The notes beneath the pieces are model-generated. The model was not told the DNA's origin. It saw only the letters and a list, made by a program, of their open reading frames with translations, and did no database searches. From a virus (lineage: Duplodnaviria > Heunggongvirae > Uroviricota > Caudoviricetes), in the IMG/VR virus record IMGVR_UViG_2690316344_000014: a stretch of 31,116 nucleotides of DNA; one strand, written 5' to 3'. The translations under genes and the position numbers were made by a program. Within the stretch, counting starts at the first letter, position 1. Each line of letters starts with the position of its first letter. Positions 15,541-31,116 of this stretch are shown one piece after another.

Positions 15541-15719
15541 AGCATCCTCACGATAATATCCGGGTAGGCGCGATCACTTTCGTCTACTCCGTTACAAAGC
15601 GAGGCTGGGTATTTCCCGGCCTTTCTGTTATCCGAAATCCCCTGAAAGCACAGCGGCTGGCTGAGGAGATAAATAATAAACGGGGAGCTGTATGCACAAA
15701 GCATCTCCCGTTGAGTTAA
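15531..15719 (+). CDS. lambda orf61-like small early protein
   Basis: 62 aa immediately after exo, the position of lambda orf61. Product unknown. Confidence 0.55.
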
Positions 15720-15883
15720 GAACGAGTATCGAGATGGCACATAGCCTCGCTCAAATTGGAGTCAGGTTTGTGCCAATACCAGTAGAAACAGACGAAGAAT
15801 TTCATACGTTAGCCGCATCCCTTTCACAAAAGCTGGAAATGATGGTGGCGAAAGCAGAAGCAGATGAGAGAGACCAGGTATGA
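15692..15883 (+). CDS. lambda orf63-like small early protein
   Basis: 63 aa, [63 protein letters not shown]. Position matches lambda orf63. Confidence 0.55.
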   Translation: MHKASPVELRTSIEMAHSLAQIGVRFVPIPVETDEEFHTLAASLSQKLEMMVAKAEADERDQV

Positions 15884-15959
15884 CAACCACTGAATGCATT
15901 TTTCTGGCAGCGGGCTTCATATTCTGTGTGCTTATGCTTGCCAACATGGGGCTTGTTCA

Positions 15960-16175
15960 ATGACACCTCAGCAAGAAAACGCCCTTCGCAGCATTGCCCG
16001 TCAGGCTAATTCTGAAATCAAAAAAGCCAGACAGCAGTTTCCGGATAAAAACGTCGATGACATTTGCCGTAGCGTACTGAAGAAGCACCGCGAAACGGTA
16101 ACGCTGATGGGATTCACACCGACTCATTTAAGCCTGGCGATCGGCATGTTAAACGGCGTCTTTAAGGAGCGATGA
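15960..16175 (+). CDS. lambda orf60a-like small early protein
   Basis: Internal start MTPQQENALRSIARQANSEIKKARQQFPDKNVDDICRSVLKKHRETVTLMGF...; position matches lambda orf60a. Confidence 0.5.
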   Translation: MTPQQENALRSIARQANSEIKKARQQFPDKNVDDICRSVLKKHRETVTLMGFTPTHLSLAIGMLNGVFKER

Positions 16176-16273
16176 ACATGAAAAGCAAAATCATCAGGGA
16201 GCTACAGGCTCCTTTTTTATTATTCGCATTCACCCTCAAGCGTATTAACCAACAATTCAGGGATTAATGGAAG

Positions 16274-16492
16274 ATGGCAGACATCATTGATTCAGCATCA
16301 GAAATCGAAGAATTACAGCGCAATACAGCAATAAAAATGCGTCGTCTGAACCACCAGGTTATATCTGCCACTCATTGTTGTGAGTGTGGCGATCCCATAG
16401 ATGAACGAAGACGCCTGGCCGTTCAGGGTTGTCGGACTTGTGCAAGTTGCCAGGAGGAGATCGAACTTAAGAACAAACAATGGGGATTGTGA
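16274..16492 (+). CDS. TraR/DksA-family C4 zinc-finger protein (lambda Orf73-like)
   Basis: 72 aa with CxxC-x17-CxxC (CCECGDPIDERRRLAVQGCRTCASC), the TraR/DksA C4-type zinc-finger layout. Phage homologues of this family are known to act on host RNA polymerase. Confidence 0.65.
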   Translation: MADIIDSASEIEELQRNTAIKMRRLNHQVISATHCCECGDPIDERRRLAVQGCRTCASCQEEIELKNKQWGL

Positions 16493-16539
16493 TGGCCTCA
16501 AAGCAGCAAATTTCAACATCGTCCAACTGAGGTGTAAAA

Positions 16540-16818
16540 ATGTTCAGAATCATTTTTCCTAACACCTGGTACGTCGACCACCACGGCACTCCCTGCAAAA
16601 TCCTGCGTTCTACCCACAACAAAGTTCACTACATCCGAAAAGGCAGAACATGTATCGCCAGCATGTTCCGCTTTAATCATGACTTTGAACCTGTGAATAA
16701 AGCTGATGCAGATCGGATAGCAGAAGAGATCGAAACGGCAGAACACATTAAGAAGTTACGTGACATGCGTTCAAAAAGCAGAGGTAACCATGGAATCATA
16801 CAGCCTCACACTCGATGA
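16540..16818 (+). CDS. small Cys/His-rich early-left protein (possibly Ea8.5-like)
   Basis: 92-aa ORF between the TraR-like gene and xis, with several His/Cys residues. Assignment is tentative, from position and size only. Confidence 0.4.
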   Translation: MFRIIFPNTWYVDHHGTPCKILRSTHNKVHYIRKGRTCIASMFRFNHDFEPVNKADADRIAEEIETAEHIKKLRDMRSKSRGNHGIIQPHTR

Positions 16819-17140
16819 GGCCTGTCAGTTTCTCAAGATATCCAGACCTACCGCTACCAACTGGATACGAACAGGCCGCCTACAGGCAACACGCAAAGAC
16901 CCCACTAAACTAAAATCTCCTTACCTCACAACACGACAAGCCTGCATTGCGGCGCTTCAGTCTCCGCTGCATACTGTCCAGGTGAGCGCGGGTGATGGCA
17001 TAACAGAGGAAAGAAAATGTCACTCTTCCGCAGAGGTGAAATATGGTACGCCAGTTTCACATTGCCGAACGGTAAAAGATTTAAACAGTCTCTTGGAACA
17101 AAGGACAAAAGGCAGGCGACAGAACTCCATGACAAGCTAA
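16790..17140 (+). CDS. xis: excisionase (Xis), HTH DNA-binding
   Basis: Internal start with a good SD (GAGGTAACC-ATG): [37 protein letters not shown]. Immediately upstream of int, but overlaps it by ~120 nt, so the true 3' end is uncertain and the gene may be frameshifted. Confidence 0.55.
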
Positions 17141-18180
17141 AGGCTGAAGCATGGCGGGTCAGCAAACTTGGTGAAATACCTGATATAACGTTCGAGGAAG
17201 CGTGTGTCAGGTGGCTTGAAGAGAAAGCACATAAAAAATCACTGGACGATGACAAAAGCCGGATCGGATTCTGGCTTCAACATTTCGCAGGAATGCAACT
17301 AAGAGACATTACTGAATCAAAAATTTATTCAGCAATGCAGAAAATGACGAACCGGCGTAATGAGGAAAACTGGAAACTCAGGGCAGAAGCATGCAGAAAA
17401 AAAGGGAAACCTGTTCCAGAATACAAGCCAAAACCAGCGTCTGTTGCAACGAAGGCTACGCATCTTTCATTTATAAAAGCCCTACTAAGAGCCGCAGAGC
17501 GTGAATGGAAAATGCTGGATAAGGCACCAATTATTAAAGTGCCTCAACCAAAGAATAAACGGATCCGCTGGCTGGAGCCCCATGAAGCACAAAGGCTGAT
17601 TGATGAATGTCCGGAGCCATTAAAGTCTGTTGTTGAATTTGCACTGGCAACAGGCTTAAGACGCTCGAACATCATCAACCTTGAATGGCAACAAATAGAT
17701 ATGCAGCGCCGGGTGGCATGGATAAACCCGGAAGAGAGTAAATCAAACCGCGCAATCGGCGTTGCGCTGAATGATACTGCATGTCGCGTATTGAAAAAAC
17801 AAATCGGGAATCATCACCGTTGGGTATTTGTGTACAAGGAAAGCTGTACCAAACCAGACGGAACGAAAGCGCCAACAGTAAGGAAGATGCGGTATGACGC
17901 AAACACAGCCTGGAAAGCGGCGCTGAGACGGGCTGGTATTGATGATTTCAGATTTCACGACTTGAGACACACCTGGGCAAGTTGGCTGGTTCAAGCCGGA
18001 GTCCCGTTGTCAGTGTTACAGGAAATGGGAGGCTGGGAGTCTATCGAAATGGTTCGTCGATATGCTCACCTTGCACCTAATCACCTTACCGAACACGCAC
18101 GGCAAATAGACTCGATCCTGAACCCATCGGTCCCAAATTTGTCCCAGTCAAAAAATAAGGAAGGTACTAATGATGTGTAA
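17017..18180 (+). CDS. int: prophage tyrosine integrase (DLP12 IntD-like)
   Basis: 387 aa with a C-terminal catalytic region ([42 protein letters not shown], i.e. HxxR ... Y). Ends 15 nt before the tRNA-Thr fragment and is convergent with it. Confidence 0.9.
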
Positions 18181-19414: not shown

Positions 19415-20305
19415 ATGGATTATAAAAATAAGTTAGTTGATGCATCACCAAAATTAAACAACCCTCAACTATTGGCTATAATATACTTAATACCTTTTGG
19501 ATACTTGATTGTAGAAAACCCATTATGGCTAGAAAATATATACATTGCCGCTCCAATTTTCCTATCATCTATAGCTTTATTAACCAGTGTATACATAGGA
19601 TATCGTGATTTATTAAATAAAGTATTTAATAATGCAGTAGTTAAATGGGGCGTAACTGGCTTTACATATTCCGTATGCTTATGGATCGCAAAGTTTAAGC
19701 TTGACATAGCTTATGGTATAGTCCCAGAAAACCTTAATTACTCGACATTAGCTTATGCTTTCATGCTCTCATTTCCAATAGGGGCAATGATTTGTGCAAT
19801 TACAGTCTATATATACATATTTTTGCGAGATGTATCCCCAGCAAAAATAGTAATATCCTCTATGATTTCAGTATATATTGGAAGCTTGGCTCAACATCAT
19901 ATACAGGTGAACAATCTTCCTGAAAAAATAATATTAATAGGACTTATAATTATGGTCCCCTATAACATGGTCAATTTAGCTAGTTCATTAGTTATTAAAA
20001 GGAAATTTAATTTTAATCGTTTAGTATCAGGCTTATCCCTTTTTGCTGTGTCAGTTGCTCTTTTTATTATTAGCATGACAGCAATGAAATACATTGAAAG
20101 ATTTCAAGAAAAGTTTATTTTTCTCGATGCAAGAACATCTACGACATGTGGTAGCTCAGAAAGCAAATCTCTTTATATTGAAAAAAATGAAAATCAGTGT
20201 TATAAAATATCAGGAAATAAATTCTCGGAGTTAAGACTAACTCTTGTAGATAAAAACATCTTGAATATAAATAATAAAGGCACTTCAACTTATGAACAAA
20301 AATAA
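19415..20305 (+). CDS. hypothetical polytopic inner-membrane protein
   Basis: 296 aa, AT-rich codon usage, multiple long hydrophobic segments (LLAIIYLIPFGYLIV, AAPIFLSSIALLTSVYIGY, LIGLIIMVPYNMVNLASSLVI, LSLFAVSVALFIISM). No family recognised. Confidence 0.6.
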   Translation: MDYKNKLVDASPKLNNPQLLAIIYLIPFGYLIVENPLWLENIYIAAPIFLSSIALLTSVYIGYRDLLNKVFNNAVVKWGVTGFTYSVCLWIAKFKLDIAYGIVPENLNYSTLAYAFMLSFPIGAMICAITVYIYIFLRDVSPAKIVISSMISVYIGSLAQHHIQVNNLPEKIILIGLIIMVPYNMVNLASSLVIKRKFNFNRLVSGLSLFAVSVALFIISMTAMKYIERFQEKFIFLDARTSTTCGSSESKSLYIEKNENQCYKISGNKFSELRLTLVDKNILNINNKGTSTYEQK

Positions 20306-20519
20306 CCCTGCTAATTCATTTTCTATAGAAGCAAGGAAAGAAGCTTTTCGGAGAGCTGAAGCCAGTCTTTTTTATCAAGTAAAGATCCCAAAGGCTCCTC
20401 ATTTTTTAATGAAATAAAAACTAAGGTAATCAATGGAGAGCTAACCTATGAAGAGGCAAAGAGAGAAGTATTAAATTATCACATTGAACAATCTAAAAAT
20501 CAAAATAAAAAAGGCTAAC
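20292..20519 (+). pseudogene. small ORF split by a frameshift at a T6 run (41-aa 5' part plus 3' part in another frame)
   Basis: MNKNNPANSFSIEARKEAFRRAEASLFYQVKIPKAPHFLMK-stop. Adding one T at the T6 run (20405-20410) restores a 75-aa ORF ending ...NGELTYEEAKREVLNYHIEQSKNQNKKG. Function unknown. Confidence 0.3.
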
Positions 20520-20539: not shown

Positions 20540-20752
20540 CTAGTGAGCTATTTTATAGTCCCTTAATGCATTTTTAAGTAACTCCGTTTGCTCATCAGCA
20601 TCATCATAATTATAAATTCCCGTAGCAGAATAATACTCTTCGATGCATAGAATATTTATCAATGGTTCACAAATCTCTTTAATAAACTCCTTGTTGTTAT
20701 CGGCAAAAATAATTTTTATTCCTTCCAAAACAAAGCTATTATAATCAGCCAT
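20540..20752 (-). CDS. hypothetical small acidic protein
   Basis: 70-aa ORF 70 nt downstream of trbL on the same strand. No recognisable family. Confidence 0.4.
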   Translation of the reverse strand: MADYNSFVLEGIKIIFADNNKEFIKEICEPLINILCIEEYYSATGIYNYDDADEQTELLKNALRDYKIAH

Positions 20753-20782
20753 TATCCACCTCCTTACAGGTGTTTAGTGGAA

Positions 20783-20814
20783 GCGTCAGTTAACGTTACC
20801 GCGCTAACTGACGC
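20783..20814. repeat. hairpin: 10-bp inverted repeat with 12-nt loop between trbL and the 70-aa ORF
   Basis: GCGTCAGTTA (20783-20792) and TAACTGACGC (20805-20814). No flanking U-run. Confidence 0.3.
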
Positions 20815-20821
20815 GCCTAAA

Positions 20822-22225
20822 TCAAGATTTTTTACTGCCAGTTAAACTATCACCCTCAAACTCATCCTGTTCGTGGTTAGTCTGACGATCGGCTGTGTGT
20901 TTACGTATTTGATTCGCTATTTCCCCACCAACGGTCTGTTGTCTTCGGATAGTATTAGTACTTCCCTTCATCATCTGATACTCCGAAGCTCCGTTAGACA
21001 ACCCGCTCGCCATGTGAGAAGCCATGCGGCCAGCTCGTGAGAATGATGAAGCAAACCCCTGGCTTCCTCCGCTGACGCTACCTGTATTACTCCCTGCAGA
21101 AGAACCACCGGAACCGCCTGATGGTTGTCCTCCAGAAGTATCTACGGAACCGGTATCTTCCCCTCCGCCAAATCCTCCACCTGAACCACCTTTATCACCA
21201 GAACCAGATTCTTCGGCCATCGCCGCTTGTGCAGATTCAAATGCTGCTTTTAGAGCGGAAGCACCACCACTGACTTGAGCTGTAGCACTTATTGCCATTG
21301 CCCCAGCGCCACTGATTGCAGTAGTAGCAGCGCCAGTAATCATACCTGCTCCAAAACCACCGATCCCTTGTAAGGACGCTCCTCCAACAACGCCTGATAA
21401 CAACAACGGTAATTTATTCGTCAATACTAAAAGAATAATTGACGCCAGAAGTAAAACAATAAGACTATTAAGATCAGGAATATCATTTTTAATAATAGAA
21501 AAATACTGATCTATAAATGATTGCCCAATCCCAATGATTAATGTCATCGTAAATAACTGAATACCAATCGATAATACTGTGCGTAAGTAATTTATTGCTA
21601 TATCAGAAGTCCATTTCGAGCCACCAAACCCAAGCAAAATAACTCCTGCATAACACAACACCCATGCAGAAACTAACATTATTAGCATATTTATCGCGAT
21701 AAGCGCCATTACTACTAATACTATTATCGCGACGGTTATCATAATGGTCGAAATCATTGGAGACCAAATTGATGCTGCTGAACTGACCTTTGTTAATATC
21801 ACAAATGCCATATCCACTATGCTGGAGGGTGAAATACCAGTACTTGTTCCTAAAGCATTTGCTGCAAGTTGTCTCATTGAGTTAATTATAGATTGTGATA
21901 TGGCTGGGCCGTTGATTAAAAGATAATAAAAAAAACCAATCACGGCAAAAAAACGAACTATTTCTGCAAGTGCACTGATTAAACCTTCCCCTTGCATCGC
22001 CAACATACCAAATGTCCAAACCATACTTATTAATACCACCCCCCAGAAGAGCCAATTTGCATAATCACCAATTACTAATGACCATGTGCTGGCTACTTGC
22101 TGAAACTTATCTAATAACGTATCAAGTAATCCGCTACTATCTAATTGACCAGCATAAGCATTTACAGAAAACAAAAAAAACATTCCTAAAAAAGTGAGCT
22201 TGCTTACTATTCTCATAATTACCAT
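20822..22225 (-). CDS. trbL: P-type conjugative transfer protein TrbL/VirB6
   Basis: 467 aa. N-terminal signal plus multiple transmembrane helices, then a C-terminal Gly/Ser-rich low-complexity tail (GGSGGGFGGGEDTGSVDTSGGQPSGGSGGSSAGS), typical of TrbL. Confidence 0.8.
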   Translation of the reverse strand: MVIMRIVSKLTFLGMFFLFSVNAYAGQLDSSGLLDTLLDKFQQVASTWSLVIGDYANWLFWGVVLISMVWTFGMLAMQGEGLISALAEIVRFFAVIGFFYYLLINGPAISQSIINSMRQLAANALGTSTGISPSSIVDMAFVILTKVSSAASIWSPMISTIMITVAIIVLVVMALIAINMLIMLVSAWVLCYAGVILLGFGGSKWTSDIAINYLRTVLSIGIQLFTMTLIIGIGQSFIDQYFSIIKNDIPDLNSLIVLLLASIILLVLTNKLPLLLSGVVGGASLQGIGGFGAGMITGAATTAISGAGAMAISATAQVSGGASALKAAFESAQAAMAEESGSGDKGGSGGGFGGGEDTGSVDTSGGQPSGGSGGSSAGSNTGSVSGGSQGFASSFSRAGRMASHMASGLSNGASEYQMMKGSTNTIRRQQTVGGEIANQIRKHTADRQTNHEQDEFEGDSLTGSKKS

Positions 22226-22392
22226 TCTCGCTTAGGGCTAGGATTGTTATTGCCACGCAGGGCACATTTATCGTAGTTATGTTCGTTCAATTTATTCTCT
22301 GGCGTCGATAAACAATCTTCATCTTTTTTATCGCAAGAGCATAGAATTAATGAAATTATTAGAATAAAAATGACCAAAAGTTTATCTTTCAT
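22219..22392 (-). CDS. small putative lipoprotein in the TrbK (entry-exclusion) position
   Basis: Found by hand (57 aa, below the ORF-track cut-off): MKDKLLVIFILIISLILCSCDKKDEDCLSTPENKLNEHNYDKCALRGNNNPSPKREW. Hydrophobic N-terminus followed by Cys; sits between trbJ and trbL as trbK does in IncP plasmids. Confidence 0.45.
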   Translation of the reverse strand: MKDKLLVIFILIISLILCSCDKKDEDCLSTPENKLNEHNYDKCALRGNNNPSPKREW

Positions 22393-23279: not shown

Positions 23280-23645
23280 TTATTTATTCAAGATTCTATC
23301 CATAATATTTCTTAGTTCTTGTCTGGTTGATTCTATTTTAGCAAGCAACGTTTTTATCAATGAGGGTGAAAAATCAACTGTGCGTGGATCGTTAGCTAAC
23401 CACAGTTTAAGTAACCCACCAAGTCGACCAAGATCAGCATTTACTCGGCTAAGCTCTACAACCTGTTCAATATCTACCATAGACTCAACCTGATAACCCA
23501 TTGCTACTTTACGAATGAAACTCGCTACACTTAAGCCAGATGCTTCTGCATTATCCTGGATTTGCGCTTTTTCATCTGGCAAACAATAAACTTTAATTGG
23601 TGTACTATTTTTTCTAGTCTGAGAAACGGTCATATCATTCTCCAT
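23280..23645 (-). CDS. traJ: relaxosome accessory oriT-binding protein, TraJ/MobC family
   Basis: 121 aa with PIKVYCLPDE and DLGRLGGLLKLWL motifs resembling RP4 TraJ / the MobC family. Sits immediately beside an RP4-like oriT. Confidence 0.75.
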   Translation of the reverse strand: MENDMTVSQTRKNSTPIKVYCLPDEKAQIQDNAEASGLSVASFIRKVAMGYQVESMVDIEQVVELSRVNADLGRLGGLLKLWLANDPRTVDFSPSLIKTLLAKIESTRQELRNIMDRILNK

Positions 23646-23660: not shown

Positions 23661-23765
23661 TCAGCCTCGCAGAGCAGGACTCCGTTGAGCAGCTCAGCTG
23701 CGAATAAGGGAAGGTAAAGTAGAAGCACCGTTTACGGTGGGCCTACTTTACATATCCTGCCCTAC
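23661..23765 (+). other. origin of transfer (oriT), IncP/RP4 type, with TraJ-binding inverted repeat and nic site
   Basis: CAGCCTCGCAGAGCAGGACTCCGTTGAGCAG ... GCGAATAAGGGAAGGTAAAGTAGAAGCACCGTTTACGGTGGGCCTACTTTACATATCCTGCCC closely parallels the RP4 oriT as I recall it from mob vectors. Inverted repeat GTAAAGTAG (23714-23722) / CTACTTTAC (23743-23751), then the ATCCTG/C nick consensus at 23754-23760. Confidence 0.8.
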
Positions 23766-23915: not shown

Positions 23916-24197
23916 TTATTCTCGCGGCTTGGGTTTTGGCGGCCTGCCACGTTTCCTTTGACATCTATTTATCTCTTTCGCTATATCGTCATTTTCTGTC
24001 TTTGACTCAACAGATTTATCTATCCAGTCCTTAACATCTTCTTTACGCCAGAGAAGACGTTTATTACCGGGAAGACGGCATCTTGGTGGAAGACATTTTG
24101 GATTTCGCGTTGCATCACTGCGGATACTTTTTACAGTTTTCTTTAATGCAAAAGCCAACTCTTCAACGGTTATAAGTTCTGGCATAACTGATTTCAT
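23916..24197 (-). CDS. alpA: AlpA-family DNA-binding protein (excisionase/transcriptional regulator-like)
   Basis: MKSVMPELITVEELAFALKKTVKSIRSDATRNPKCLPPRCRLPGNKRLLWRKEDVKDWI, the AlpA/MerR-like winged-HTH pattern, with a basic C-terminal tail. The ORF can start at 24209. Confidence 0.7.
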   Translation of the reverse strand: MKSVMPELITVEELAFALKKTVKSIRSDATRNPKCLPPRCRLPGNKRLLWRKEDVKDWIDKSVESKTENDDIAKEINRCQRKRGRPPKPKPRE

Positions 24198-24231
24198 CGA
24201 AGAACCCATCTCTCAGTAGAAATTTGAGGAT

Positions 24232-24259
24232 TTTAGCGGCTAAAATTTTAGCCGCTAAA
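24232..24259. promoter_or_regulatory. 28-bp perfect palindrome immediately upstream of alpA
   Basis: TTTAGCGGCTAAAA-TTTTAGCCGCTAAA, 23 nt upstream of the longest alpA start. Candidate operator. Confidence 0.45.
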
Positions 24260-24509
24260 GTTTGCTAACCAACGTTATGAATTGAGAATAATTAAAACTT
24301 ACTGGCAAAAAGAATAATGTCAACAGGGTTTTTATTCATCGGATTCTTACTCCATATGAAATTGGTTTTATTGACCGATTTCTGAATGACACTAAGGTTT
24401 TAATAATTCCTTTAATCTTTTTGGTTATATAAAAGGTTAAAGATCAGGTTAGAGAGGTGTGGAAAAGCGATATATTCACTTGTTTACTATGACAATTTTA
24501 AATTATATC

Positions 24510-24572
24510 CGTACCTCAAATGTCATGAAAGCGTACCTCATATGTCATAAAGGCGTACCTCATATGTCATAT
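24510..24572 (+). repeat. three tandem ~22-bp direct repeats (iteron-like)
   Basis: CGTACCTCAAATGTCATGAAAG, CGTACCTCATATGTCATAAAGG, CGTACCTCATATGTCATAT, head to tail. Confidence 0.7.
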
Positions 24573-24615
24573 AATAAAAAATAAGCAAACAAGTTATACA
24601 CAATATTATTAACAG

Positions 24616-24865
24616 AATCTGTGGATAAATACACAGATTATACATGATAAAATAGATTGTTTAGCTAAACTAAATAACAATAAATAAAATGAAACAAAAT
24701 GTAAATAACAGGGGGGGGGGTGTAAGTGACTTATAAATTTGGTTAGCTAACCTTTATAAGAAACACTGTTTGTAAATGATTCATTTCTGACAACGGATAT
24801 ATCGAATTTGAGTAAGAAAAACACTTCAACTAACCTTACTCTCTGATTTGTTTAGCTAAACAAAT
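24616..24865. promoter_or_regulatory. cluster of palindromes upstream of the higA-like gene, three sharing a TTAGCTAA core
   Basis: AATCTGTG-n8-CACAGATT (24616-24639); GTTTAGCTAAAC (24659-24670); CTTATAAA-ttt-GGTTAGCTAACC-TTTATAAG (24730-24760); ATTTGTTTAGCTAAACAAAT (24846-24865, 20 bp perfect). Confidence 0.5.
24711..24720. repeat. G10 homopolymer tract
   Basis: Ten consecutive G in an otherwise AT-rich intergenic region. Confidence 0.9.
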
Positions 24866-24889
24866 TACTGTAAGGAATCCGATGACGTT

Positions 24890-24904
24890 AAAAAAAAGGG
24901 GGGG
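24890..24904 (+). repeat. A8G7 homopolymer tract overlapping the ribosome-binding site of the higA-like gene
   Basis: AAAAAAAAGGGGGGG ends 2 nt before the ATG at 24907. Confidence 0.9.
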
Positions 24905-24906
24905 AT

Positions 24907-25164
24907 ATGAGGACAATAAATGCTGCACCTTCAACTGTCGGAGAGATTTTATACGAAGAATTCTTGAAACCATTGGATATGCCTCCCGCAAGACTTGCTG
25001 AACTGATGGATACATCATATGAAAAAATTTGGGAAATAATTAAAAATGAGCGAAATATAACTCTTGAAGAAGCTATTCAACTCTCGATAATTTTCAATAC
25101 AGATGCATCTTTTTGGGTGAAACTGCAAGAGCTACATGAGGCATGGTTTAATAAACAAAAGTAA
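24907..25164 (+). CDS. HigA-like XRE-family HTH protein (antitoxin-like / transcriptional regulator), apparently orphan
   Basis: 85 aa, MRTINAAPSTVGEILYEEFLKPLDMPPARLAELMDTSYEKIWEIIKNERNITLEEAIQLSIIFNTDASFWVKLQ, the HigA/VapI-type pattern. No HigB/RelE-like ORF found on either side. Confidence 0.7.
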   Translation: MRTINAAPSTVGEILYEEFLKPLDMPPARLAELMDTSYEKIWEIIKNERNITLEEAIQLSIIFNTDASFWVKLQELHEAWFNKQK

Positions 25165-25364
25165 GGTTATTCAATTAGATTACTTAGTCCTAATACATAA
25201 TTTGCTTTGAATAATACTCATACATTTCTAACGACTTATTAAAGCGATAATATACTCGGACGACTGAGGATTAAAAAATCCGATCCTTGATGATGGGAAC
25301 CTGCCATGACTAGGTAAGTCATTTTAGCAGTGGTACAGGCGACATTAAAAGCCGATATAAAGAA

Positions 25365-25397
25365 GCCCGACTGGTAAGATCGGGCCTTTTTATTTTT
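25365..25397 (+). terminator. rho-independent terminator
   Basis: GCCCGA-ctggtaaga-TCGGGC followed by CTTTTTATTTTT. Confidence 0.5.
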
Positions 25398-25782
25398 CCA
25401 CTCTGGCCTGAATGGAACATCCTACATTAGACGTTAAGATCTTACATCTAATTATCCGAAAATACTAATGGATGCGTAGTTGCATTTGACCTGACCGCCC
25501 ATTTGCGGGTTACTCTACCATCGCCAATAAAGTCCGGCTACTCGAATTCGGAAGTATTAGGCTATAGGTCATAAACCTGAATAACTGCTATGTGCTGAAG
25601 CGGATAAAGCTGACATCATTATGCACCAATCAACTCGGTGTAAGTCAGCTAGTTGGTGATGGAGTGACTTGTCAATAGTTGTAGCCCCTACCAGTGCATC
25701 GGAGATTCTTGAGTGTAACCTTAGTTGCTTTAATCAGAAGTAAAGGAAACGTACTATGAAAATCAGTACTCTTAATCAAGAG

Positions 25783-25812
25783 ATCCCCCGTTCTCTCACG
25801 GAAAAGGGGGAT
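25783..25812. terminator. hairpin just 3' of the 420-aa gene
   Basis: ATCCCCC-n16-GGGGGAT beside the stop at 25820; T-rich sequence follows on the plus strand. Confidence 0.3.
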
Positions 25813-25819
25813 TGAATTT

Positions 25820-27082
25820 TCAAATTTTCTTTTTAGCGATAAAAATACAGTAAAAATATAAGGTTTTGATAATGTGATTAATGCTGTGCACCTCGCGAAA
25901 TAATAGTAATAGCTTCCTCATAAAAGACATGAAACTAAGTTCGTTGTATTTAGTGCGTTCCATTCCTTCCTTAGCGAAATAGTAGGTTATCATCTGAATT
26001 GACTCTTTATATTCATATTTATAATGTGCAATGCCATTTCGCAGCTTGTTGTCTAAAGCATTGAGATCAACTATATAAAAGCTATCATCCAATCCGCTTA
26101 TTTTCGTGCCTAAATCAACGTTTGCATATTCGTTGAGACTAGAAAAACCTTTAATTAAATCGCCTTTTTTATTTAGTCTTACTGAATCGTCAAAAATATT
26201 ATGATCTCCGCGTTTTAATAAGTTATTCAATCCGGCCACAATTATTAATTGCCGAGAGAATACTTCAGATAAGTCTTTGTAAAAATTGTTACAGTCATCA
26301 AATTCGGCAGTTGAAACTCGAGCAGGAATCATTGATAAATCTACGTTTTTATCATAATCATAGTAAAGCGCTGGGCGTGAAGGGAGTTCAAAGTCAAGCA
26401 TTTTGGGATATAGGCTTAAACAATCGAAATGCAAACTTTTCAGAAACCCACTTCCAATAATATCATCTAAAAATTTATTTAGCTGTTTTGGATGATTTTT
26501 CTGAATATAATGAAGAAATTGTGGCATTTTTTCACTAATTTCAGCATTATGTGCATGTATTGTAAAGGGAAATGACATTGCAGAGGTTGCTGTATAAAGT
26601 GCGGAAAGGATATCTTGTATTTTTAGCGAACGAGGTTTTTTCAGAGTAGGTAATTCTTTCATTAGGTTACTGAAAGTATTGTAATTTCCTTGTTTGTATT
26701 GAGTAATGAGTCGCTGGAGCTTATCGCGATGTTTATAAATATAATTCATTCCATTTAGATGTGCGTTCAGCATTAAGTATTTTTCATGACCTATTGCACT
26801 TGTTATTTTTAAGAATGCTGTTTTTCCTATTTCGTATTTTCCAAAGCCTACGGGAAAATCTAAATGCAAATCGATGAATGGATTTGTTGTGCCAAAGTCA
26901 TTGCTTTCTACAGTTTCCGCACCGTTAAATACAGGCTCTCCCTCCCCAAGAGTAAACGATATATTATTCTCACAATTTGGACATGCAAATTGGAACGGTT
27001 GTATGTCTCGATTAGACATACCTATTCTTGTATCAATGACCGTGTCACATACAAGGCATTTAAATTGCTGTAAAAAATTCAT
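25820..27082 (-). CDS. hypothetical protein with N-terminal zinc-ribbon (CxxC ... CxxC), 420 aa
   Basis: MNFLQQFKCLVCDTVIDTRIGMSNRDIQPFQFACPNCEN: Cys9/Cys12 and Cys34/Cys37. AT-rich; no family recognised by eye. Confidence 0.6.
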   Translation of the reverse strand: MNFLQQFKCLVCDTVIDTRIGMSNRDIQPFQFACPNCENNISFTLGEGEPVFNGAETVESNDFGTTNPFIDLHLDFPVGFGKYEIGKTAFLKITSAIGHEKYLMLNAHLNGMNYIYKHRDKLQRLITQYKQGNYNTFSNLMKELPTLKKPRSLKIQDILSALYTATSAMSFPFTIHAHNAEISEKMPQFLHYIQKNHPKQLNKFLDDIIGSGFLKSLHFDCLSLYPKMLDFELPSRPALYYDYDKNVDLSMIPARVSTAEFDDCNNFYKDLSEVFSRQLIIVAGLNNLLKRGDHNIFDDSVRLNKKGDLIKGFSSLNEYANVDLGTKISGLDDSFYIVDLNALDNKLRNGIAHYKYEYKESIQMITYYFAKEGMERTKYNELSFMSFMRKLLLLFREVHSINHIIKTLYFYCIFIAKKKI

Positions 27083-27329
27083 AAATATTTTATTAATCCT
27101 ATAAATTATAAGTTAAGTATTAGTCTTTTATCTACAAACCAAAGCCACTTTACTACTTTACCTAACTGCACTTTAAACAATCATAAGTTCTTTTTTTTTA
27201 AAAAGGTAGTCCAAAGATACCAATTTATTCAATATCAACGAGAATTCGAGACTCCTATGTGAGTAAAAAACTATGAGCTTCATGCCATGCTTTCAATAAA
27301 TGTCTTCAGTTACCCATAAATTTACTGGA

Positions 27330-27857
27330 TTAACAATTTGTAGTCTTTCCGACCAAATTACCGCGCGCAGTGTGACCCCATACTTTAGATGTCACCTTAT
27401 CTCTTTCCACTAGTTGTTTACGGTGCATCAAATCGGCAAGCAGTATTGAAACAAAGAACATGAATTTTGTTTTGGGAGTATTAGGAACATCTTTGGGTCC
27501 AAGCCAAGGTAGCTGCTCCAGTTGATTTTGTATTTTGGGTGTTGCGAAGCTAACACCATTCCAACTATGCCCAAAAGCATTTCTAATGCTACGCAGTGTG
27601 TTTAGTTCTTTGTATTCGTGTTCCATTATCAGTCCTAACGCATATGCTAAGCCTGTTCTAGCAGCAAAAGATGATAAAGGCGCTGTTGCACCATTCAGTA
27701 GACCTTTAGCTACTTTGTCATTTAACAGGTGAGCCTGGATGATCTCGGATAACCACTCATCGAAAATGGATGCTGCTATTAGAACAGAGCCACGATCTGA
27801 TTCTTTATTTAGTTCGGACAAAAATTGACCGAGTTCAATTTGGGTTTTATCACTCAC
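27330..27857 (-). CDS. HEPN/MtlR-like protein with Rx4H motif (candidate RNase-type toxin or abortive-infection protein)
   Basis: 175 aa. The N-terminus (GSVLIAASIFDEWLSEIIQAHLL) resembles the MtlR/HEPN helical fold; RNAFGH (R92-x4-H97, nt 27567-27584) fits the HEPN Rx4-6H motif. Confidence 0.5.
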   Translation of the reverse strand: MSDKTQIELGQFLSELNKESDRGSVLIAASIFDEWLSEIIQAHLLNDKVAKGLLNGATAPLSSFAARTGLAYALGLIMEHEYKELNTLRSIRNAFGHSWNGVSFATPKIQNQLEQLPWLGPKDVPNTPKTKFMFFVSILLADLMHRKQLVERDKVTSKVWGHTARGNLVGKTTNC

Positions 27858-28371
27858 AGACTCTGGAACTCCTTTCTCAAAAATTCAACATGAGGACGCT
27901 TCGGTCGCACATCAATCTTAACCATTAGATTATGAAATTGTGTTAGGTCTGGGTCAAACTATGAACAAAAACAGAAAAAATTATTGTGACGTTATTTAGG
28001 GGGACCTACAATGACACATTTTAAACAATTACTTTAATATCAATAAATTGGATCGTATTACTGTGTTCCTATTATTGGTTTAGCTCAGCTTGTCGCTCAC
28101 AGCGGACCTTCAGCTCGATAGCAAGTCCGCTCCGTTGGAGTGCCAGATGCGCTCTAAATTTGATGGCTAGTATTGAAGAGATACTTGGGCATCATGGTTA
28201 TGGTGTAAATACCGTCTGTGATACCCGCAGAGGTGCTAGGTTTAGGCACTGAGAAGGATACATTGAACATGAATTCAGAGTGATGTAACACAAGTCATAG
28301 AAAATTAGTGATTTATATTGAAAAGGGGGCTATTTTATTAAAGCAAGGCCGCCTTTAGGCAGCCTCTTATT

Positions 28372-29049
28372 TTACATGTAGATATTCATTAAACTGTCAA
28401 ATAGTCTTTTGGTTAACTCTTTTTCCGCTCGTGCTTCGATTTGAGCCATACCATTTCGGAAGAGTTTTAATTTACCGCTAAATTCTTGGTCATGAATAGT
28501 ACATGTCAATCGATCAAGTCTCATTTTTTTGTGAATAAGCTCATCTTTGAAATATTTTTTAAGATCGCTGGTACTATTAATTTGCATCTTGGCAAGAGCA
28601 AATTCAGCAACTTGAATTTGAGATACATCTAGTTGCACTATATTAAGTGTCAACTCTGTGTTTAAAGAACTGAACCATATGAACGGGTCAATCTCAATCT
28701 CTTCTAAGCTGGTACCAAGACCAAGGTTTTTTACCAGTGCCTGAGCAAATGGTTTAAGTGTTCTCGGTGGATTATCAATAAGTAAAACTGGGGTGTATTG
28801 TTCGTCAAAACTGAAAGATGTTACTCTATATTCAATGCGTTCAACAGCGGTACTGTTGCCGTATAGATTACTTATTCTATCTTCGCTAATTATCTTTTCG
28901 ATGAAGCGAGCGTGAAAATGAGATGTTCGTGATTTATCAAATATAAACCCTTTCCCTTTCTCTTCAGTAAAAGGATCACGCATGAGTTTTTCAACTGTTT
29001 CACTAGTAGTGAAACGATTGTTGAGTTTAATCCATTTAAATTTTTTCAT
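28372..29049 (-). CDS. hypothetical protein, gene C of a coupled three-gene operon
   Basis: 225-aa ORF whose start overlaps the last 14 nt of the upstream gene. AT-rich; no recognisable motif. Confidence 0.6.
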   Translation of the reverse strand: MKKFKWIKLNNRFTTSETVEKLMRDPFTEEKGKGFIFDKSRTSHFHARFIEKIISEDRISNLYGNSTAVERIEYRVTSFSFDEQYTPVLLIDNPPRTLKPFAQALVKNLGLGTSLEEIEIDPFIWFSSLNTELTLNIVQLDVSQIQVAEFALAKMQINSTSDLKKYFKDELIHKKMRLDRLTCTIHDQEFSGKLKLFRNGMAQIEARAEKELTKRLFDSLMNIYM

Positions 29050-30115
29050 GCTCTTCCACCTTTTTACCCGTCACGATATTATAGGCGTCTGCTGCTGACT
29101 GTTCAATTAGTAGGCTGATTTTCTTCTTTTCAACTTCATTTGCTGCACGAATAGTAACATTGTATCCACTACCTTTTTGGTTATTGATTCCTTTAATTTG
29201 ATAGGAAAAATCAGAGCAATTTTCTGAATCCTTAAAGAAAGCTTCAACCAAAATCCTGTCTCCTATTCCGTTTTTAGGTTTAGCAGACCAAGCAATTCTT
29301 CCAATATAGTATCCTTTGTTATGTAGTTGGGTGAAAATAGCAGAACTATTAACAGAATCACCTTTTAGAACCGCTTTTTTTACGAATCCTGTCTCGATTT
29401 CTTCTTCTTCCTCGTCATCACCTTTGCTTGTTGAACGGTTAAGCTCTACATTAGTAACGTCGTCAATTTCATATCCACTCAAGCCGCCCATAACCTCTTG
29501 AAAAAACTGACTTCTTAGCGCTGGTGTAGGAATCGCTTCTAAAGAAATTTCAAACTTTTCAACATCAACGGATTTAATCTTTGACAACTCTTTTTGTAAT
29601 AGTGTTATTACATCTTTAGCCTTTTGGTTCTGAGGCATACGAATATCAACATTATCGTTATTTACAGTAAGATCAATCTTGATGTTTCGGTTGTCTATCT
29701 GACGCAATGCTGTTCTGGACAAGTCTACTTCTTGGTAGTTTACCTCGATTGCTAAAGACCCATCTTTTTTCGCAGTGATTTTTACTGTTTCACCAGAGCC
29801 AGTGGCTAATTTTCTTTTAACTAACTCTGCTGCTGTTTTTAATTCCGTCTGAGAGGATGATGCTTGAAGCTTGACGCTAGTTATACTCTCTCTTTTATCA
29901 TAAGTTTGTACAAGTTCCTTAATAGAATCTAGATCACTATATCCCTGAGGTAGTTTGCAAACCTCTTCAATTAATTCCTCCTTTGTTAAGTCTTGAGCAA
30001 CAATAATACCTTTCCGTAATAATATCTCGCGTAATCTTGCGATGGTAATTCGTTTATGATGAAGTGCATCATATATATTTTTGTCAGTTGCGAAATAAAT
30101 ATTCATGTTATTCAT
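29036..30115 (-). CDS. hypothetical protein, gene B of a coupled three-gene operon
   Basis: 359 aa with an acidic stretch (GDDEEEEEIE). Its ATG overlaps the upstream stop by 1 nt (TAATG). No family recognised. Confidence 0.6.
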   Translation of the reverse strand: MNNMNIYFATDKNIYDALHHKRITIARLREILLRKGIIVAQDLTKEELIEEVCKLPQGYSDLDSIKELVQTYDKRESITSVKLQASSSQTELKTAAELVKRKLATGSGETVKITAKKDGSLAIEVNYQEVDLSRTALRQIDNRNIKIDLTVNNDNVDIRMPQNQKAKDVITLLQKELSKIKSVDVEKFEISLEAIPTPALRSQFFQEVMGGLSGYEIDDVTNVELNRSTSKGDDEEEEEIETGFVKKAVLKGDSVNSSAIFTQLHNKGYYIGRIAWSAKPKNGIGDRILVEAFFKDSENCSDFSYQIKGINNQKGSGYNVTIRAANEVEKKKISLLIEQSAADAYNIVTGKKVEEHEKI

Positions 30116-31116
30116 TAACGTTGCTCCATGCCTATAGCTTCAAGACTATATTGAATTACCATTGCAGCTGTTTTTTCGAATGCAACTTTTGAAAACAAAC
30201 GTTCACTTTCGCCTGATAGCCAATGGGCACTATATTTTTGCTTTGCTCTTTCAAAGTGATGAATGGAGTCTTCATGCGGATTTATATGACAATGTCTAAT
30301 TTTTATTCTTTTTGCATCAGTCAGTATTTGATAATTAGAAAGCATGTCAAGGAAATAGATGAACTCATCTTCACTATTCCCTGGTTGATTATAATAAATT
30401 ACGTAACCACTATCTTCTTTTTCACCCATCCAATCGAATTCTTCATGCTTTATTATTATGAATGGTGATGTTAAGACCTCAACAGTAGCTGCAGTCTTAT
30501 TGTTGATAGGATGTTTTATCCTAGTTAGTGCTAAGTCTGGGTAATAGAAATAGTACAAATCTGGTTGAGGTAAAGCCCCGGTACCAATAAGCATTTTAAT
30601 ATCTGATGCTATATTTATCATATCGGATATTTTGAATGGATCTAAAAGGTGTAATTTTATGTTTGGGGGGCATTTTATTATTTCAGGGTCGACTTTCTTC
30701 ATCACGGATGAGTAAAAATCCTTGTCATAAAGGTTGTCATGATTATAGAGAAATAATAAACCTCGAACTTTGTAACCTAATGACTCATCCCGCACATATC
30801 GTTTACACCACTGTTGGCTAATGTTGGCGCATTCTGTAGCGAGAGCTAAAGAAGAAAGTGCACCTTCTACCATCCCTTTGCCGATACTACTTTGAGCATA
30901 GCTTTTGAGGTCTGTGTTCAAGTACACAATCTCTTCTTCATAAGGATCGGTATAGTAAAACACCACATCGCTAGGATGTGTTTTTTTGTCATGAGCCTCT
31001 AGGTCGCAATCCCAGTTCATATCTTGACTAGTAGCTCGTTGCCATTTGAAAATTTTAAAAATATCTTGGGTTATCTTATTTGCAACATGCTGTATTGAAG
31101 AGGTCTCTCCGCCCAT
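30115..31116 (-). CDS. hypothetical protein, gene A of a coupled three-gene operon; possible PD-(D/E)xK nuclease-like motif; start at or beyond the window edge
   Basis: At least 333 aa. The ORF reaches the last base of the window, where an ATG lies. A hydrophobic strand ending in Asp (DVVFYYTD57) is followed by EIVYLNTD69-L-K71, a pattern like restriction-endonuclease-fold motifs II/III. Confidence 0.55.
   Translation of the reverse strand: MGGETSSIQHVANKITQDIFKIFKWQRATSQDMNWDCDLEAHDKKTHPSDVVFYYTDPYEEEIVYLNTDLKSYAQSSIGKGMVEGALSSLALATECANISQQWCKRYVRDESLGYKVRGLLFLYNHDNLYDKDFYSSVMKKVDPEIIKCPPNIKLHLLDPFKISDMINIASDIKMLIGTGALPQPDLYYFYYPDLALTRIKHPINNKTAATVEVLTSPFIIIKHEEFDWMGEKEDSGYVIYYNQPGNSEDEFIYFLDMLSNYQILTDAKRIKIRHCHINPHEDSIHHFERAKQKYSAHWLSGESERLFSKVAFEKTAAMVIQYSLEAIGMEQR

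What the first reader, a model, noticed from the sequence alone, without database searches (positions are those of the whole stretch)
24907..25164. Orphan HigA-like HTH gene with no partner toxin, positioned at the head of the cargo block
HigA-type antitoxins normally sit beside a RelE/HigB-type toxin, but I find no such ORF on either side. The nearest small frames are interrupted by stops, including around the G10 tract. The protein may instead be a stand-alone XRE-type regulator of the adjacent cargo genes, as seen for HTH regulators that gate defence systems.
Basis: partly seen in the sequence, partly recalled or inferred. Interest (0 to 1): 0.4.

Follow-up and report, generated by a model that had tools for sequence, protein, structure and literature searches.

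The report
Toxin-less HigA regulator in mobilizable island
This is a real antitoxin-type DNA-binding gene that has no toxin partner; it is a fixed backbone gene of a small E. coli island that depends on IncP plasmids and swaps anti-phage cargo, and it is probably the island's own regulator, not a switch for the neighbouring defence genes.

Summary
Window 24907-25164 (+) is an intact 85-aa ORF. It scores above the curated cut-off for the HigA antitoxin family (TIGR02607) and models as a five-helix HigA fold. No HigB/RelE/ParE gene or relic lies near it.

The gene belongs to the backbone of a roughly 10-14 kb integrative mobilizable element: int, trbL-trbK-trbJ, traJ, IncP-type oriT, alpA-like excisionase. 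The element is close to the recently described IncP-dependent PIME family but has no replicase.

HigA sits divergently from alpA across about 700 nt of IncP-1-type control DNA. That DNA holds two exact KorB operators, two exact and one symmetric-variant KorA operator, three TrfA-type iterons and a DnaA box. All are at fixed distances from the higA start in 15 loci from several enterobacterial genera.

Variable defence cargo follows about 300-450 nt after the stop codon: Rst_3HP here; IetAS, Pycsar, CBASS, NACHT and Dcm/HEPN/GmrSD elsewhere. One HigA allele occurs with three cargos, and one cargo with three alleles, so cargo-specific gating is not supported.

Best reading (inferred): an ex-antitoxin kept as the island's resident repressor. 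An anti-addiction role against the helper plasmid's HigB is the main rival. Orphan antitoxins are common, so interest is modest.

The parts
24907..25164 (+). Solitary HigA-family HTH gene, 85 aa
   Evidence: TIGR02607 scores 65.9 bits (cut-off 47.7). The AF2 model plus Foldseek matches PaHigA/YbaQ/GraA at TM 0.81-0.89. The ORF is intact in 17 island alleles, with dN/dS 0.13-0.76 against the window allele.
24882..24906 (+). Upstream ATG (24882) and A8G7 homopolymer run (24889-24904) just before the start codon. The G run is the likely Shine-Dalgarno site.
   Evidence: The tract length differs between lineages (A7-8, G5-8). The upstream ATG is therefore in frame in some alleles (MTLKKGGDMRT..., 93-94 aa) and out of frame here.
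24846..24865 (.). KorA operator OA3: exact GTTTAGCTAAAC at 24850-24861, inside a 20-bp perfect palindrome, 45 nt upstream of the higA ATG
   Evidence: Exact match. OA consensus from PMC2680271 and PMC11790492. Found at -57 relative to the ATG in 14 of 15 island loci.
24726..24753 (+). Candidate higA promoter: -35 GTGACT (24726-31), 16-nt spacer, -10 TAACCT (24748-53). It overlaps the symmetric KorA-operator variant GGTTAGCTAACC (24741-52).
   Evidence: The layout is the same as korAp/trfAp on IncP-typed plasmids, where OA overlaps the -10. The variant operator is conserved at -166 in 13 of 15 loci. The promoter assignment is inferred.
24711..24720 (.). G10 tract: non-coding, lineage-specific, length-polymorphic
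   Evidence: Near-identical islands have G7-G8. Other lineages have GGGGATTG.
24659..24670 (.). KorA operator OA1 (exact GTTTAGCTAAAC)
   Evidence: Found at about -244 in all 15 loci.
24510..24628 (.). oriV-like module: three 22-nt TrfA-type iterons (24510-24575) and a DnaA box TGTGGATAA (24620-28)
   Evidence: Repeats. The iterons match the oriV iterons beside trfA on IncP-typed plasmids. Conserved in the island loci.
24232..24259 (.). Two adjacent KorB operators: TTTAGCGGCTAAA and TTTAGCCGCTAAA
   Evidence: Exact matches; 0.08 expected by chance. OB consensus from PMC2680271. OB1 is conserved in the loci examined where the scanned upstream stretch reached it.
24296..24323 (-). Candidate leftward promoter of the alpA-traJ-trbJKL operon: TTGACA (24323-18), 16-nt spacer, TAAGTT (24301-24296). 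The OB pair lies in its 5' leader.
   Evidence: Read from the sequence. The block is conserved in the seven aligned variants. Inferred.
23916..24209 (-). alpA/excisionase-like gene, divergent from higA
   Evidence: phrog_66 'excisionase and transcriptional regulator' E 7e-6; phrog_6355 E 2.5e-31.
23663..23762 (.). IncP-type oriT: 9-bp inverted repeat (23714-22 / 23743-51) and nic motif TATCCTG|C (23753-60, + strand), 8 nt from the repeat
   Evidence: Rfam traJ-II scores 93 bits on this stretch. The motif is read directly from the sequence. The comparison with the RP4 nic sequence is from memory. The PIME preprint reports IncP-like oriT in related elements.
23280..23645 (-). traJ (NikA-like oriT-binding protein)
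   Evidence: PF21983 scores 81 bits. 77-83% nucleotide identity to traJ of IncP-typed plasmids.
25165..25590 (+). Conserved non-coding tail of the backbone, with an intrinsic terminator (stem 25365-25387, T run to 25400). Variable cargo starts beyond it.
   Evidence: Alignment of variants. One compensatory change in the terminator stem. Fold z-score -2.1.
25820..31116 (-). Cargo of this variant: a 420-aa protein, an MltR-like 175-aa protein, and the Rst_3HP defence genes Hp3-Hp2-Hp1
   Evidence: PADLOC Hp1-3 at 267-583 bits. MtlR Pfam/NCBIfam hits.

Best explanation
The gene encodes a HigA-family helix-turn-helix protein that descends from a higBA toxin-antitoxin pair. It is now kept without a toxin as a backbone gene of an IncP-plasmid-dependent integrative mobilizable island, a PIME-like element that lacks a replicase.

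Proposed mechanism (inferred):
- It binds DNA as a dimer in the ~700-nt control region it shares with the divergent alpA/xis-traJ-trbJKL operon.
- It represses its own promoter and probably the leftward excision/transfer operon. This is the role a divergent second regulator (luxR) plays beside alpA in PIME1 elements.
- That control region also carries exact KorA and KorB operators and TrfA iterons. So higA and alpA expression should additionally respond to the KorA/KorB/TrfA proteins of a co-resident IncP-type plasmid.
- It is not a dedicated regulator of the defence genes downstream.

Shown here: family membership, fold, absence of a toxin, backbone status, operator sequences and their conservation.

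Inferred: DNA targets, promoter positions, repression, and response to the helper plasmid.
For: - Family and fold.
- DNA-contact positions of P. aeruginosa HigA (T40, D43, R46, R49; PMC6987408) align to K40, E43, K46, R49. These positions are invariant or nearly so in the island clade. A DNA-binding surface is therefore kept.
- Solitary in every island locus examined, more than 30 across several enterobacterial genera (Escherichia, Enterobacter, Erwinia and Pseudescherichia by record title; homologues also named from Klebsiella, Citrobacter and Salmonella). No gene is called in the ~700-nt gap to alpA. No HigB signal in 17 of these loci.
- All 17 alleles tested are intact, with dN/dS below 1.
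- A second allele, 47% identical and also TIGR02607-positive and toxin-less, fills the same slot in another variant. This argues that the position needs such a protein.
- The divergent alpA-HTH layout parallels PIME1, where alpA and a divergent luxR are both required for induction.
- OA, OB, iterons and the DnaA box sit at fixed distances from the higA ATG in 15 loci. They are identical to the operators at korAp/trfAp of IncP-typed plasmids that also share traJ.
- The allele and the cargo reassort independently.
Against: - No binding site for this protein has been identified. The palindromes upstream are KorA/KorB operators, not demonstrably HigA operators.
- dN/dS is only moderately below 1, and the coding region is not much more conserved than its flanks. 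Selection on the protein is therefore not strongly demonstrated.
- The L019-type allele is found only with IetAS. This leaves room for some cargo linkage.
- One island has higA cut by IS1 and is otherwise intact, so the gene is dispensable for carriage.
- The PIME preprint does not mention HigA or KorA.
- Helper dependence of this particular repA-less element is untested.
Confidence: 0.45

Rival explanations
1. Anti-addiction or anti-toxin role. The orphan HigA neutralises HigB toxins made by others. The obvious candidate is the higBA module that IncP-typed helper plasmids carry next to oriV. This would protect the island's host from post-segregational killing when the helper is lost. Alternatively it could disarm HigB-type abortive-infection toxins in a new recipient.
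For: - The closest plasmid homologues (51% identity) are the antitoxins of complete higB-higA pairs beside oriV. They lie on the same IncP-typed plasmid family that shares traJ, iterons and OA/OB with the island.
- higA lies in the leading region: the nic site is on the + strand at 23759/60.
- Orphan antitoxins are reported as enriched in leading regions and proposed to counter rival elements (PMC11541004).
- Anti-addiction is the standard proposal for orphan antitoxins (PMC7354431, PMC10790755).
Against: - 51% identity is low for cross-neutralisation, because type II pairs are usually insulated.
- The island protein lacks the 17-residue C-terminal tail of the plasmid HigA.
- The higA coding strand is the transferred strand, so it cannot be transcribed from incoming single-stranded DNA, unlike typical early leading-region genes (inference and PMC11541004).
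- Two alleles only 47% identical to each other occupy the slot. This is odd if a single plasmid toxin were the target.
Confidence: 0.22
2. First reader's reading. The protein is a stand-alone XRE-type regulator that gates expression of the adjacent defence cargo.
For: - It always sits at the backbone/cargo junction, and the cargo is defence systems.
- The divergent L019-type allele travels only with IetAS.
- Recombination breakpoints fall at or within higA.
Against: - The same protein occurs with three unrelated cargos, and the same cargo with three alleles.
- Cargo genes are mostly convergent with higA.
- A conserved terminator and spacer lie between higA and the cargo.
- There is no PADLOC family for it: PDC-S05 scores 16 bits with no stretch passing the threshold on its own.
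- No shared operator is possible across unrelated cargo promoters.
Confidence: 0.1
3. Evolutionary relic. It is a leftover antitoxin gene from a decayed higBA module of the ancestral IncP-like plasmid, with no current function.
For: - Relatives are overwhelmingly paired with HigB (16 of 18).
- Surveys find that many orphan antitoxins are degraded systems (PMC7354431).
- dN/dS reaches 0.76 in some comparisons.
- One IS1-disrupted copy exists.
Against: - The ORF is intact in all 17 alleles tested across several genera, although the homopolymer tract beside the start codon varies in length.
- No trace of a toxin remains in any lineage, so toxin loss is ancient while the antitoxin persisted.
- A second, divergent allele was recruited to the same slot.
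- The promoter and operator architecture is conserved.
Confidence: 0.12
4. It is the antitoxin of an unrecognised, non-HigB toxin encoded elsewhere in the island. Candidates are the 296-aa membrane protein or the 70-aa ORF next to trbL.
For: - The island holds several addiction-like pieces: a VbhA-family gene, and PtaRNA1 with a small ORF.
- The 296-aa protein has no family assignment.
Against: - Those candidates already have their own putative antidotes next to them: vbhA and PtaRNA1.
- They lie 4-5 kb away, in other transcription units.
- Nothing adjacent to higA is coding.
Confidence: 0.05

Closest known systems
HigA antitoxins of higBA modules (TIGR02607 type: P. aeruginosa HigA PA4674, P. 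putida GraA, and the HigA of IncP-typed enterobacterial plasmids such as p14EC001a)
   Same: - Sequence family, about 85-100 aa.
- Five-helix XRE fold (TM 0.81-0.89).
- The conserved GEIL-EEFL-PL N-terminal motif.
- Arg49 and conservative replacements at the other DNA-contact positions.
- 51% identity to the plasmid HigA.
   Different: - No HigB upstream or anywhere in the window.
- No bicistronic operon.
- The C-terminus is shorter than in the plasmid HigA.
- It is preceded by about 700 nt of IncP control DNA instead of a compact TA promoter.
PIME family of IncP-dependent integrative mobilizable elements (bioRxiv 10.64898/2026.01.12.698999)
   Same: - int, alpA, traJ, trbJ-trbK-trbL.
- IncP-like oriT with its own inverted repeat.
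- A large accessory region with immune systems.
- A second regulator divergent from alpA (as in PIME1).
- Enterobacterial hosts.
   Different: - No repA/repC replicase. TrfA-type iterons and a DnaA box are present instead.
- The divergent regulator is HigA-like, not LuxR-family.
- Integration is at the yagP / thrW (proA) region in most genomes, not at guaA.
- KorA/KorB operators are not described for PIMEs.
- Helper dependence is not tested for this element.
IncP-1 central control regulon (KorA/KorB operators of RK2/RP4)
   Same: - Exact OA (GTTTAGCTAAAC) and OB (TTTAGCSGCTAAA) sequences.
- An OA-like site overlaps a -10 element.
- TrfA-type iterons and a DnaA box.
   Different: - The island encodes no korA, korB, trfA or relaxase, so any regulation must come in trans from a plasmid.
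- One operator is a symmetric variant (GGTTAGCTAACC).
Orphan antitoxins in E. coli and Klebsiella genomes and in plasmid leading regions
   Same: - A toxin-less type II antitoxin gene on a mobile element, in the leading region relative to oriT.
   Different: - Here the orphan state is fixed across a whole element family, with a conserved regulatory architecture.
- A second allele occupies the same slot.
HTH regulators that gate defence systems (CapW/BrxR, CapH-CapP)
   Same: - A small HTH gene next to defence genes. CapH appears only as a weak structural neighbour of the model (TM 0.64).
   Different: - No fixed partnership with any one defence system.
- No WYL or protease partner.
- Convergent orientation, with a terminator in between.

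Membership tests
HigA family antitoxin (NCBIfam TIGR02607) | Sequence scores above the curated family cut-off | tested here: met
   65.9 bits against a cut-off of 47.7, E 2e-18, covering 77 of 81 model positions.
HigA family antitoxin (NCBIfam TIGR02607) | All-helical XRE/HTH fold like solved HigA structures | tested here: met
   AF2 pLDDT 84.7, five helices. Foldseek top hits are PaHigA 7CSY/7CSV/6JPI, YbaQ 2EBY and GraA 6F8S at TM 0.81-0.89.
HigA family antitoxin (NCBIfam TIGR02607) | Binds and neutralises a HigB/RelE-fold toxin | not testable with these tools
   Needs co-expression or binding assays.
higBA type II toxin-antitoxin module | Adjacent HigB/RelE/ParE-family toxin gene, normally upstream in one operon | tested here: not met
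   The HigB HMM scores <=3.6 bits in the window and <=8.7 bits in 17 island loci, against 56-186 bits in 16 of 18 non-island relatives. The plasmid HigB gives 16.9 bits by tblastn. The six-frame Pfam scan is empty.
higBA type II toxin-antitoxin module | Autoregulatory palindrome at the module's own promoter | tested here: inconclusive
   The palindromes upstream are exact KorA/KorB operators. Only partial matches to the PaHigA motif TTAACGTTAA were seen by eye in the sequence (CCAACGTTAT at 24270-79, ATGACGTTAA at 24882-91), and they are not conserved as such.
PIME (IncP-dependent integrative mobilizable elements) | Integrase, alpA, trbJ and trbL (with or without traJ and trbK) together on one island | tested here: met
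   Phage_integrase 93.6 bits and TrbL 103 bits. TrbJ/T4SS weak hit and NikA-like TraJ. RefSeq names in L001. alpA-like by phrog_66. A 57-aa lipoprotein-like ORF sits between trbJ and trbL.
PIME (IncP-dependent integrative mobilizable elements) | Own replicase (repA/repC), used as a core search criterion by the authors | tested here: not met
   No replicase among the island genes in the window or in the annotated relatives. Only TrfA-type iterons are present.
PIME (IncP-dependent integrative mobilizable elements) | IncP-like oriT: inverted repeat plus conserved nic site | tested here: met
   9-bp inverted repeat and TATCCTG|C 8 nt away. Rfam traJ-II scores 93 bits.
PIME (IncP-dependent integrative mobilizable elements) | Excision and mobilisation triggered by an IncP helper plasmid | not testable with these tools
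   Experimental.
IncP-1 KorA/KorB regulon | Consensus operators OA GTTTAGCTAAAC and OB TTTAGCSGCTAAA at promoters | tested here: met
   Two exact OA sites, one 2-mismatch symmetric OA, and two exact OB sites. The consensus sequences come from PMC2680271 and PMC11790492.
IncP-1 KorA/KorB regulon | korA/korB encoded on the same replicon | tested here: not met
   No such genes in the island. They are present on the IncP-typed plasmids.
Defence-system gating HTH regulators (CapW/BrxR/CapH type) | Conserved linkage to one defence system and shared or divergent promoter with it | tested here: not met
   One allele occurs with three cargos and one cargo with three alleles. Orientation is convergent, with a terminator in between.

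The most novel reading that the evidence does not exclude
HigA is the helper-sensing switch of this repA-less island.

- It is a labile, antitoxin-derived repressor that holds the alpA/xis-traJ-trbJKL operon off.
- Its own promoter carries KorA operators.
- When an IncP-type plasmid enters, plasmid KorA (with KorB loaded at the OB pair) shuts off higA.
- HigA then decays, the island excises, replicates from its TrfA iterons using the helper's TrfA, and is transferred.

This would supply the unknown 'helper plasmid inducer' mechanism that the PIME authors say is still under investigation.
Probability: 0.1. Interest if true: 0.65.

Novelty: new member of a known kind. Interest (0 to 1): 0.3.

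Why it matters
For the gene itself the result is mostly clarifying. A RefSeq 'HigA family addiction module antitoxin' that looks misplaced is a stable, toxin-less backbone gene. It should not be counted as a TA system or as a defence-system regulator.

The wider value is in the context. A compact island that ferries many anti-phage systems among Enterobacteriaceae carries exact KorA/KorB operators and TrfA iterons but none of the corresponding genes. This suggests its expression and replication are wired into IncP-type helper plasmids. If HigA is the resident repressor in that circuit, it offers a simple experimental handle on how such defence-carrying islands sense their helpers.

Tried and rejected
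- **Decayed higB between the iterons and higA, or around the G10 tract.** Rejected. There is no similarity in any frame, and the G tract is a lineage-specific non-coding expansion.
- **Faint HigB-HMM hit.** It lies in the +1 frame inside higA with four stops, at 2-9 bits. I treat it as chance.
- **The three TTAGCTAA palindromes as HigA operators.** My first guess was that they were autoregulatory sites. They are exact KorA operators.
- **The 22-nt repeats as integrase arm sites or TraJ sites.** They match TrfA iterons of IncP-typed plasmids instead.
- **Simple synteny 'oriV-higB-higA' with the plasmids.** Rejected. The iterons are inverted relative to higA compared with the plasmid, and HigA is far more diverged (51% aa) than traJ (77-83% nt).
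- **Rfam.** Nothing is found at higA or its flanks except oriT/traJ-II. The Thr-leader hit is just the terminator.
- **PADLOC for HigA.** Only PDC-S05 at 16 bits, with no stretch passing the threshold on its own.
- **An 11-nt perfect inverted repeat (24336-46 / 24875-85).** It does not covary in relatives, so I read it as chance.
- **IetAS copies without the L019-type allele.** They are IS1 truncations and therefore uninformative.
- **The sigma-70 scan.** It gave fewer hits than the shuffles. The promoters proposed here rest on analogy with the plasmid korAp/trfAp layout only.
Full report
**1. The observation**

The window has an ATG-initiated ORF at exactly 24907-25164 (+), 85 aa.
- It scores 65.9 bits on NCBIfam TIGR02607 'HigA family addiction module antitoxin' (curated cut-off 47.7).
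- It hits the PHROG 'plasmid antitoxin with HTH domain'.
- It is below threshold for the generic Pfam HTH_3 model.
- An AlphaFold2 model built on a 58-sequence alignment (pLDDT 84.7, five helices) superposes on P. aeruginosa HigA bound to DNA, E. coli YbaQ and P. putida GraA with TM 0.81-0.89. The same proteins are the best sequence matches among solved structures.

So 'HigA-like HTH' is correct.

**2. Is it really alone?**

I collected relatives of the protein in reference genomes and built a HigB profile from the ~93-aa toxins that lie immediately upstream of them.
- The profile finds a toxin within 800 nt of 14 of 16 distant genomic relatives and 2 of 2 plasmid relatives, at 56-186 bits.
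- It gives <=3.6 bits around the window gene and <=8.7 bits in 17 loci of the same island family.
- The residual hit lies in an alternative frame inside higA, is broken by four stops, and is not meaningful.
- tblastn of the toxins against the whole window finds nothing.
- The HigB of the nearest plasmid homologue gives 16.9 bits at best.
- A six-frame Pfam scan of 24200-25830 finds no toxin family.

The G10 tract (24711-20) is non-coding. It is G7-G8 in islands >=99% identical and GGGGATTG in other lineages.

**3. What the surroundings are**

Positions 1-17.3 kb of the window are a lambdoid prophage. From about 18.3 kb onward lies an island whose relatives occur in about 95-160 of 5,426 complete E. 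coli genomes and in other enterobacteria. By record title these include Enterobacter, Erwinia and Pseudescherichia; homologues are also named from Klebsiella, Citrobacter and Salmonella.

The backbone, in order:
- integrase
- a 296-aa membrane protein
- a VbhA-family gene
- a 70-aa ORF with the Rfam antisense RNA PtaRNA1
- trbL
- a 57-aa lipoprotein-like ORF in the trbK position
- trbJ
- traJ
- an alpA/excisionase-like gene
- about 700 nt without genes
- higA

.

Upstream of traJ lies an IncP-type oriT. It has a 9-bp inverted repeat and the nic motif TATCCTG|C 8 nt away on the + strand. Rfam calls this stretch traJ-II.

There is no relaxase, no coupling protein, no full T4SS and no replicase. 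This is therefore an integrative mobilizable element.

A January 2026 preprint defines the PIME family: int, alpA, repA, traJ, trbJ/K/L, an IncP-like oriT, induction by IncP helper plasmids and immune-system cargo. In its PIME1 subfamily a second regulator (luxR) lies divergent from alpA, and both regulators are required for induction. The present element fits that description except that it has no replicase and the divergent regulator is HigA-like. The preprint mentions neither HigA nor KorA.

**4. The 700-nt region in front of higA**

It is IncP-1 control DNA.
- It holds two adjacent exact KorB operators (TTTAGCGGCTAAA and TTTAGCCGCTAAA, 24232-59). Chance expectation is 0.08.
- It holds two exact KorA operators (GTTTAGCTAAAC at 24659-70 and 24850-61) and a symmetric variant (GGTTAGCTAACC, 24741-52). 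The consensus sequences were checked in PMC2680271 and PMC11790492.
- It also holds three 22-nt repeats (24510-75) that match the TrfA iterons beside trfA on IncP-typed enterobacterial plasmids, and a DnaA box.
- Those plasmids share traJ at 77-83% nucleotide identity. They use the same OA/OB at their korA and trfA promoters, with OA overlapping the -10 element.
- By analogy I propose a higA promoter (GTGACT, 16-nt spacer, TAACCT) overlapped by the variant operator, with OA3 in the leader 45 nt before the ATG. I also propose a leftward alpA promoter (TTGACA, 16-nt spacer, TAAGTT) with the OB pair in its leader. These assignments are inferences; the generic promoter scan was uninformative.
- The whole architecture is conserved at fixed distances from the higA start in 15 island loci: OA at -244 and -57, the variant at -166, OB at about -672, iterons at -390 to -345, and the DnaA box at -284.

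**5. Relation to the cargo**

Conservation continues for 300-450 nt past the stop codon, through an intrinsic terminator (25363-25400; one compensatory change in a relative). It then breaks.

What follows differs between variants:

| Locus | Cargo |
|---|---|
| window | 420-aa protein, MltR-like protein, Rst_3HP |
| L019 | IetAS |
| L021 | Pycsar |
| L022 | AAA + HNH |
| L023 | Dcm + HEPN + DUF262/GmrSD |
| L028 | CBASS |
| L030, L031 | NACHT/STAND proteins |
| L036-L038 | others |

- The identical HigA protein precedes three of these cargos.
- The Dcm/HEPN/GmrSD cargo follows three different HigA alleles.
- Most cargo genes converge on higA.

One variant carries a different HigA-family allele in the same slot. 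It is 47% identical, scores 53 bits on TIGR02607, and also lacks a toxin. It always occurs with IetAS, as one clone in 28 genomes. This shows that recombination can swap higA together with cargo, and that the slot is refilled with the same kind of protein.

**6. Origin**

Beyond the island clade (>=82% identity), the next relatives are <=48% identical among protein-database representatives and about 51% on plasmids. The best plasmid matches (51%) are antitoxins of complete higB-higA pairs next to oriV on IncP-typed plasmids. The island gene thus most likely descends from such a pair.

It is not a simple syntenic remnant. The iterons are inverted relative to higA compared with the plasmid, and HigA is much more diverged than traJ.

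**7. Function**

Shown:
- The gene is intact in all 17 alleles tested, with dN/dS 0.13-0.76.
- The positions that contact DNA in P. aeruginosa HigA (T40, D43, R46, R49; PMC6987408) are K40, E43, K46 and R49 here.

Inferred: the protein binds DNA in the shared control region and represses its own promoter and probably the alpA/xis-traJ-trbJKL promoter, as the second regulator of the island. KorA/KorB from an IncP helper would act on the same promoters. I give this about 0.45.

Rivals:
- Anti-addiction against the helper's HigB, or another anti-toxin role in the leading region: 0.22. This is supported by the plasmid higBA pairs and by reports that orphan antitoxins are enriched in leading regions (PMC11541004). 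It is weakened by the low identity, by the two divergent alleles, and by the coding strand being the transferred strand.
- Cargo gating: 0.10.
- Inert relic: 0.12.
- Antidote of an unrecognised toxin elsewhere in the island: 0.05.

**8. Novelty**

Orphan antitoxins are very common. In 950 E. coli genomes, 176 of 290 antitoxin groups occur unpaired (PMC10790755). RefSeq already names this gene. The element type is known: VirB5/VirB6-bearing non-canonical IMEs are noted in Hochhauser et al., and there is the PIME preprint.

The finding is therefore a new member of a known kind, and I score interest at 0.3.

The part worth following up is the wiring: exact KorA/KorB operators and TrfA iterons on an island that encodes none of those proteins, with an antitoxin-derived HTH at the centre. 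If HigA is the labile repressor that couples helper arrival to excision, it would answer a question the PIME authors leave open. I rate that at about 0.1.

Noticed in passing
window 20540-20818: Rfam PtaRNA1 (RF01811, 48.6 bits, just above gathering) lies at 20746-20818 (+). It overlaps the 5' end of a 70-aa ORF (20540-20752, -) beside trbL. This looks like a type I toxin/antisense-RNA pair on the island backbone.
   Followed up: partly
window 20292-20519: The VbhA-family antitoxin gene annotated in 99.8%-identical islands is split over two frames in this window. This is a frameshift or a homopolymer sequencing error. It follows a 296-aa multi-pass membrane protein that has no family assignment.
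   Followed up: partly
window 22219-22392 (-): A 57-aa ORF with a lipoprotein-like signal (…LILCSC…) lies between trbJ and trbL, where IncP plasmids encode the entry-exclusion protein TrbK. An island with trbJ-trbK-trbL but no other T4SS genes might exclude or modify IncP transfer.
   Followed up: no
window 24741-24752, and the same site in 13 of 15 island loci: The middle KorA-type operator carries a symmetric double change (GTTTAGCTAAAC to GGTTAGCTAACC) that keeps the palindrome and is conserved across genera. This suggests selection for a dimeric binder with altered affinity or specificity.
   Followed up: partly
window 24510-24628: There are TrfA-type iterons and a DnaA box but no trfA or other rep gene on the island. 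The excised island might replicate using the helper plasmid's TrfA in trans.
   Followed up: no
window 25165-25590: A conserved non-coding segment follows higA. It has a structured, strongly conserved stretch (about 25320-25400) ending in an intrinsic terminator. This could be a 3'UTR-derived or independent small RNA, or the recombination boundary for cargo exchange.
   Followed up: partly
window 25820-27857 (-): A 420-aa protein and an MltR/MtlR-like 175-aa protein sit between higA and Rst_3HP. They have strong PHROG families of unknown function and no PADLOC hit. Given the position, they may be an undescribed defence pair.
   Followed up: no
window 24882-24906: The A8G7 run before the start codon varies in length between lineages. 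This puts an upstream ATG in or out of frame with higA (85 aa versus 93-94 aa products). It is constant (A8G7) within the window's own lineage.
   Followed up: partly
L021, L023, L024, L030 (left end of the island): RefSeq annotates a 112-nt 'tRNA-Ser' immediately before the island integrase. ARAGORN finds no tRNA in the window. The other island end is tRNA-Thr next to proA in most genomes, but not in the window's variant, where a second tyrosine recombinase and CP4-like genes follow the cargo.
   Followed up: no
window 1-17300: The left half of the window is a DLP12/lambdoid-type prophage (terminase, ybcK, porin, replication protein). It is unrelated to the finding.
   Followed up: partly
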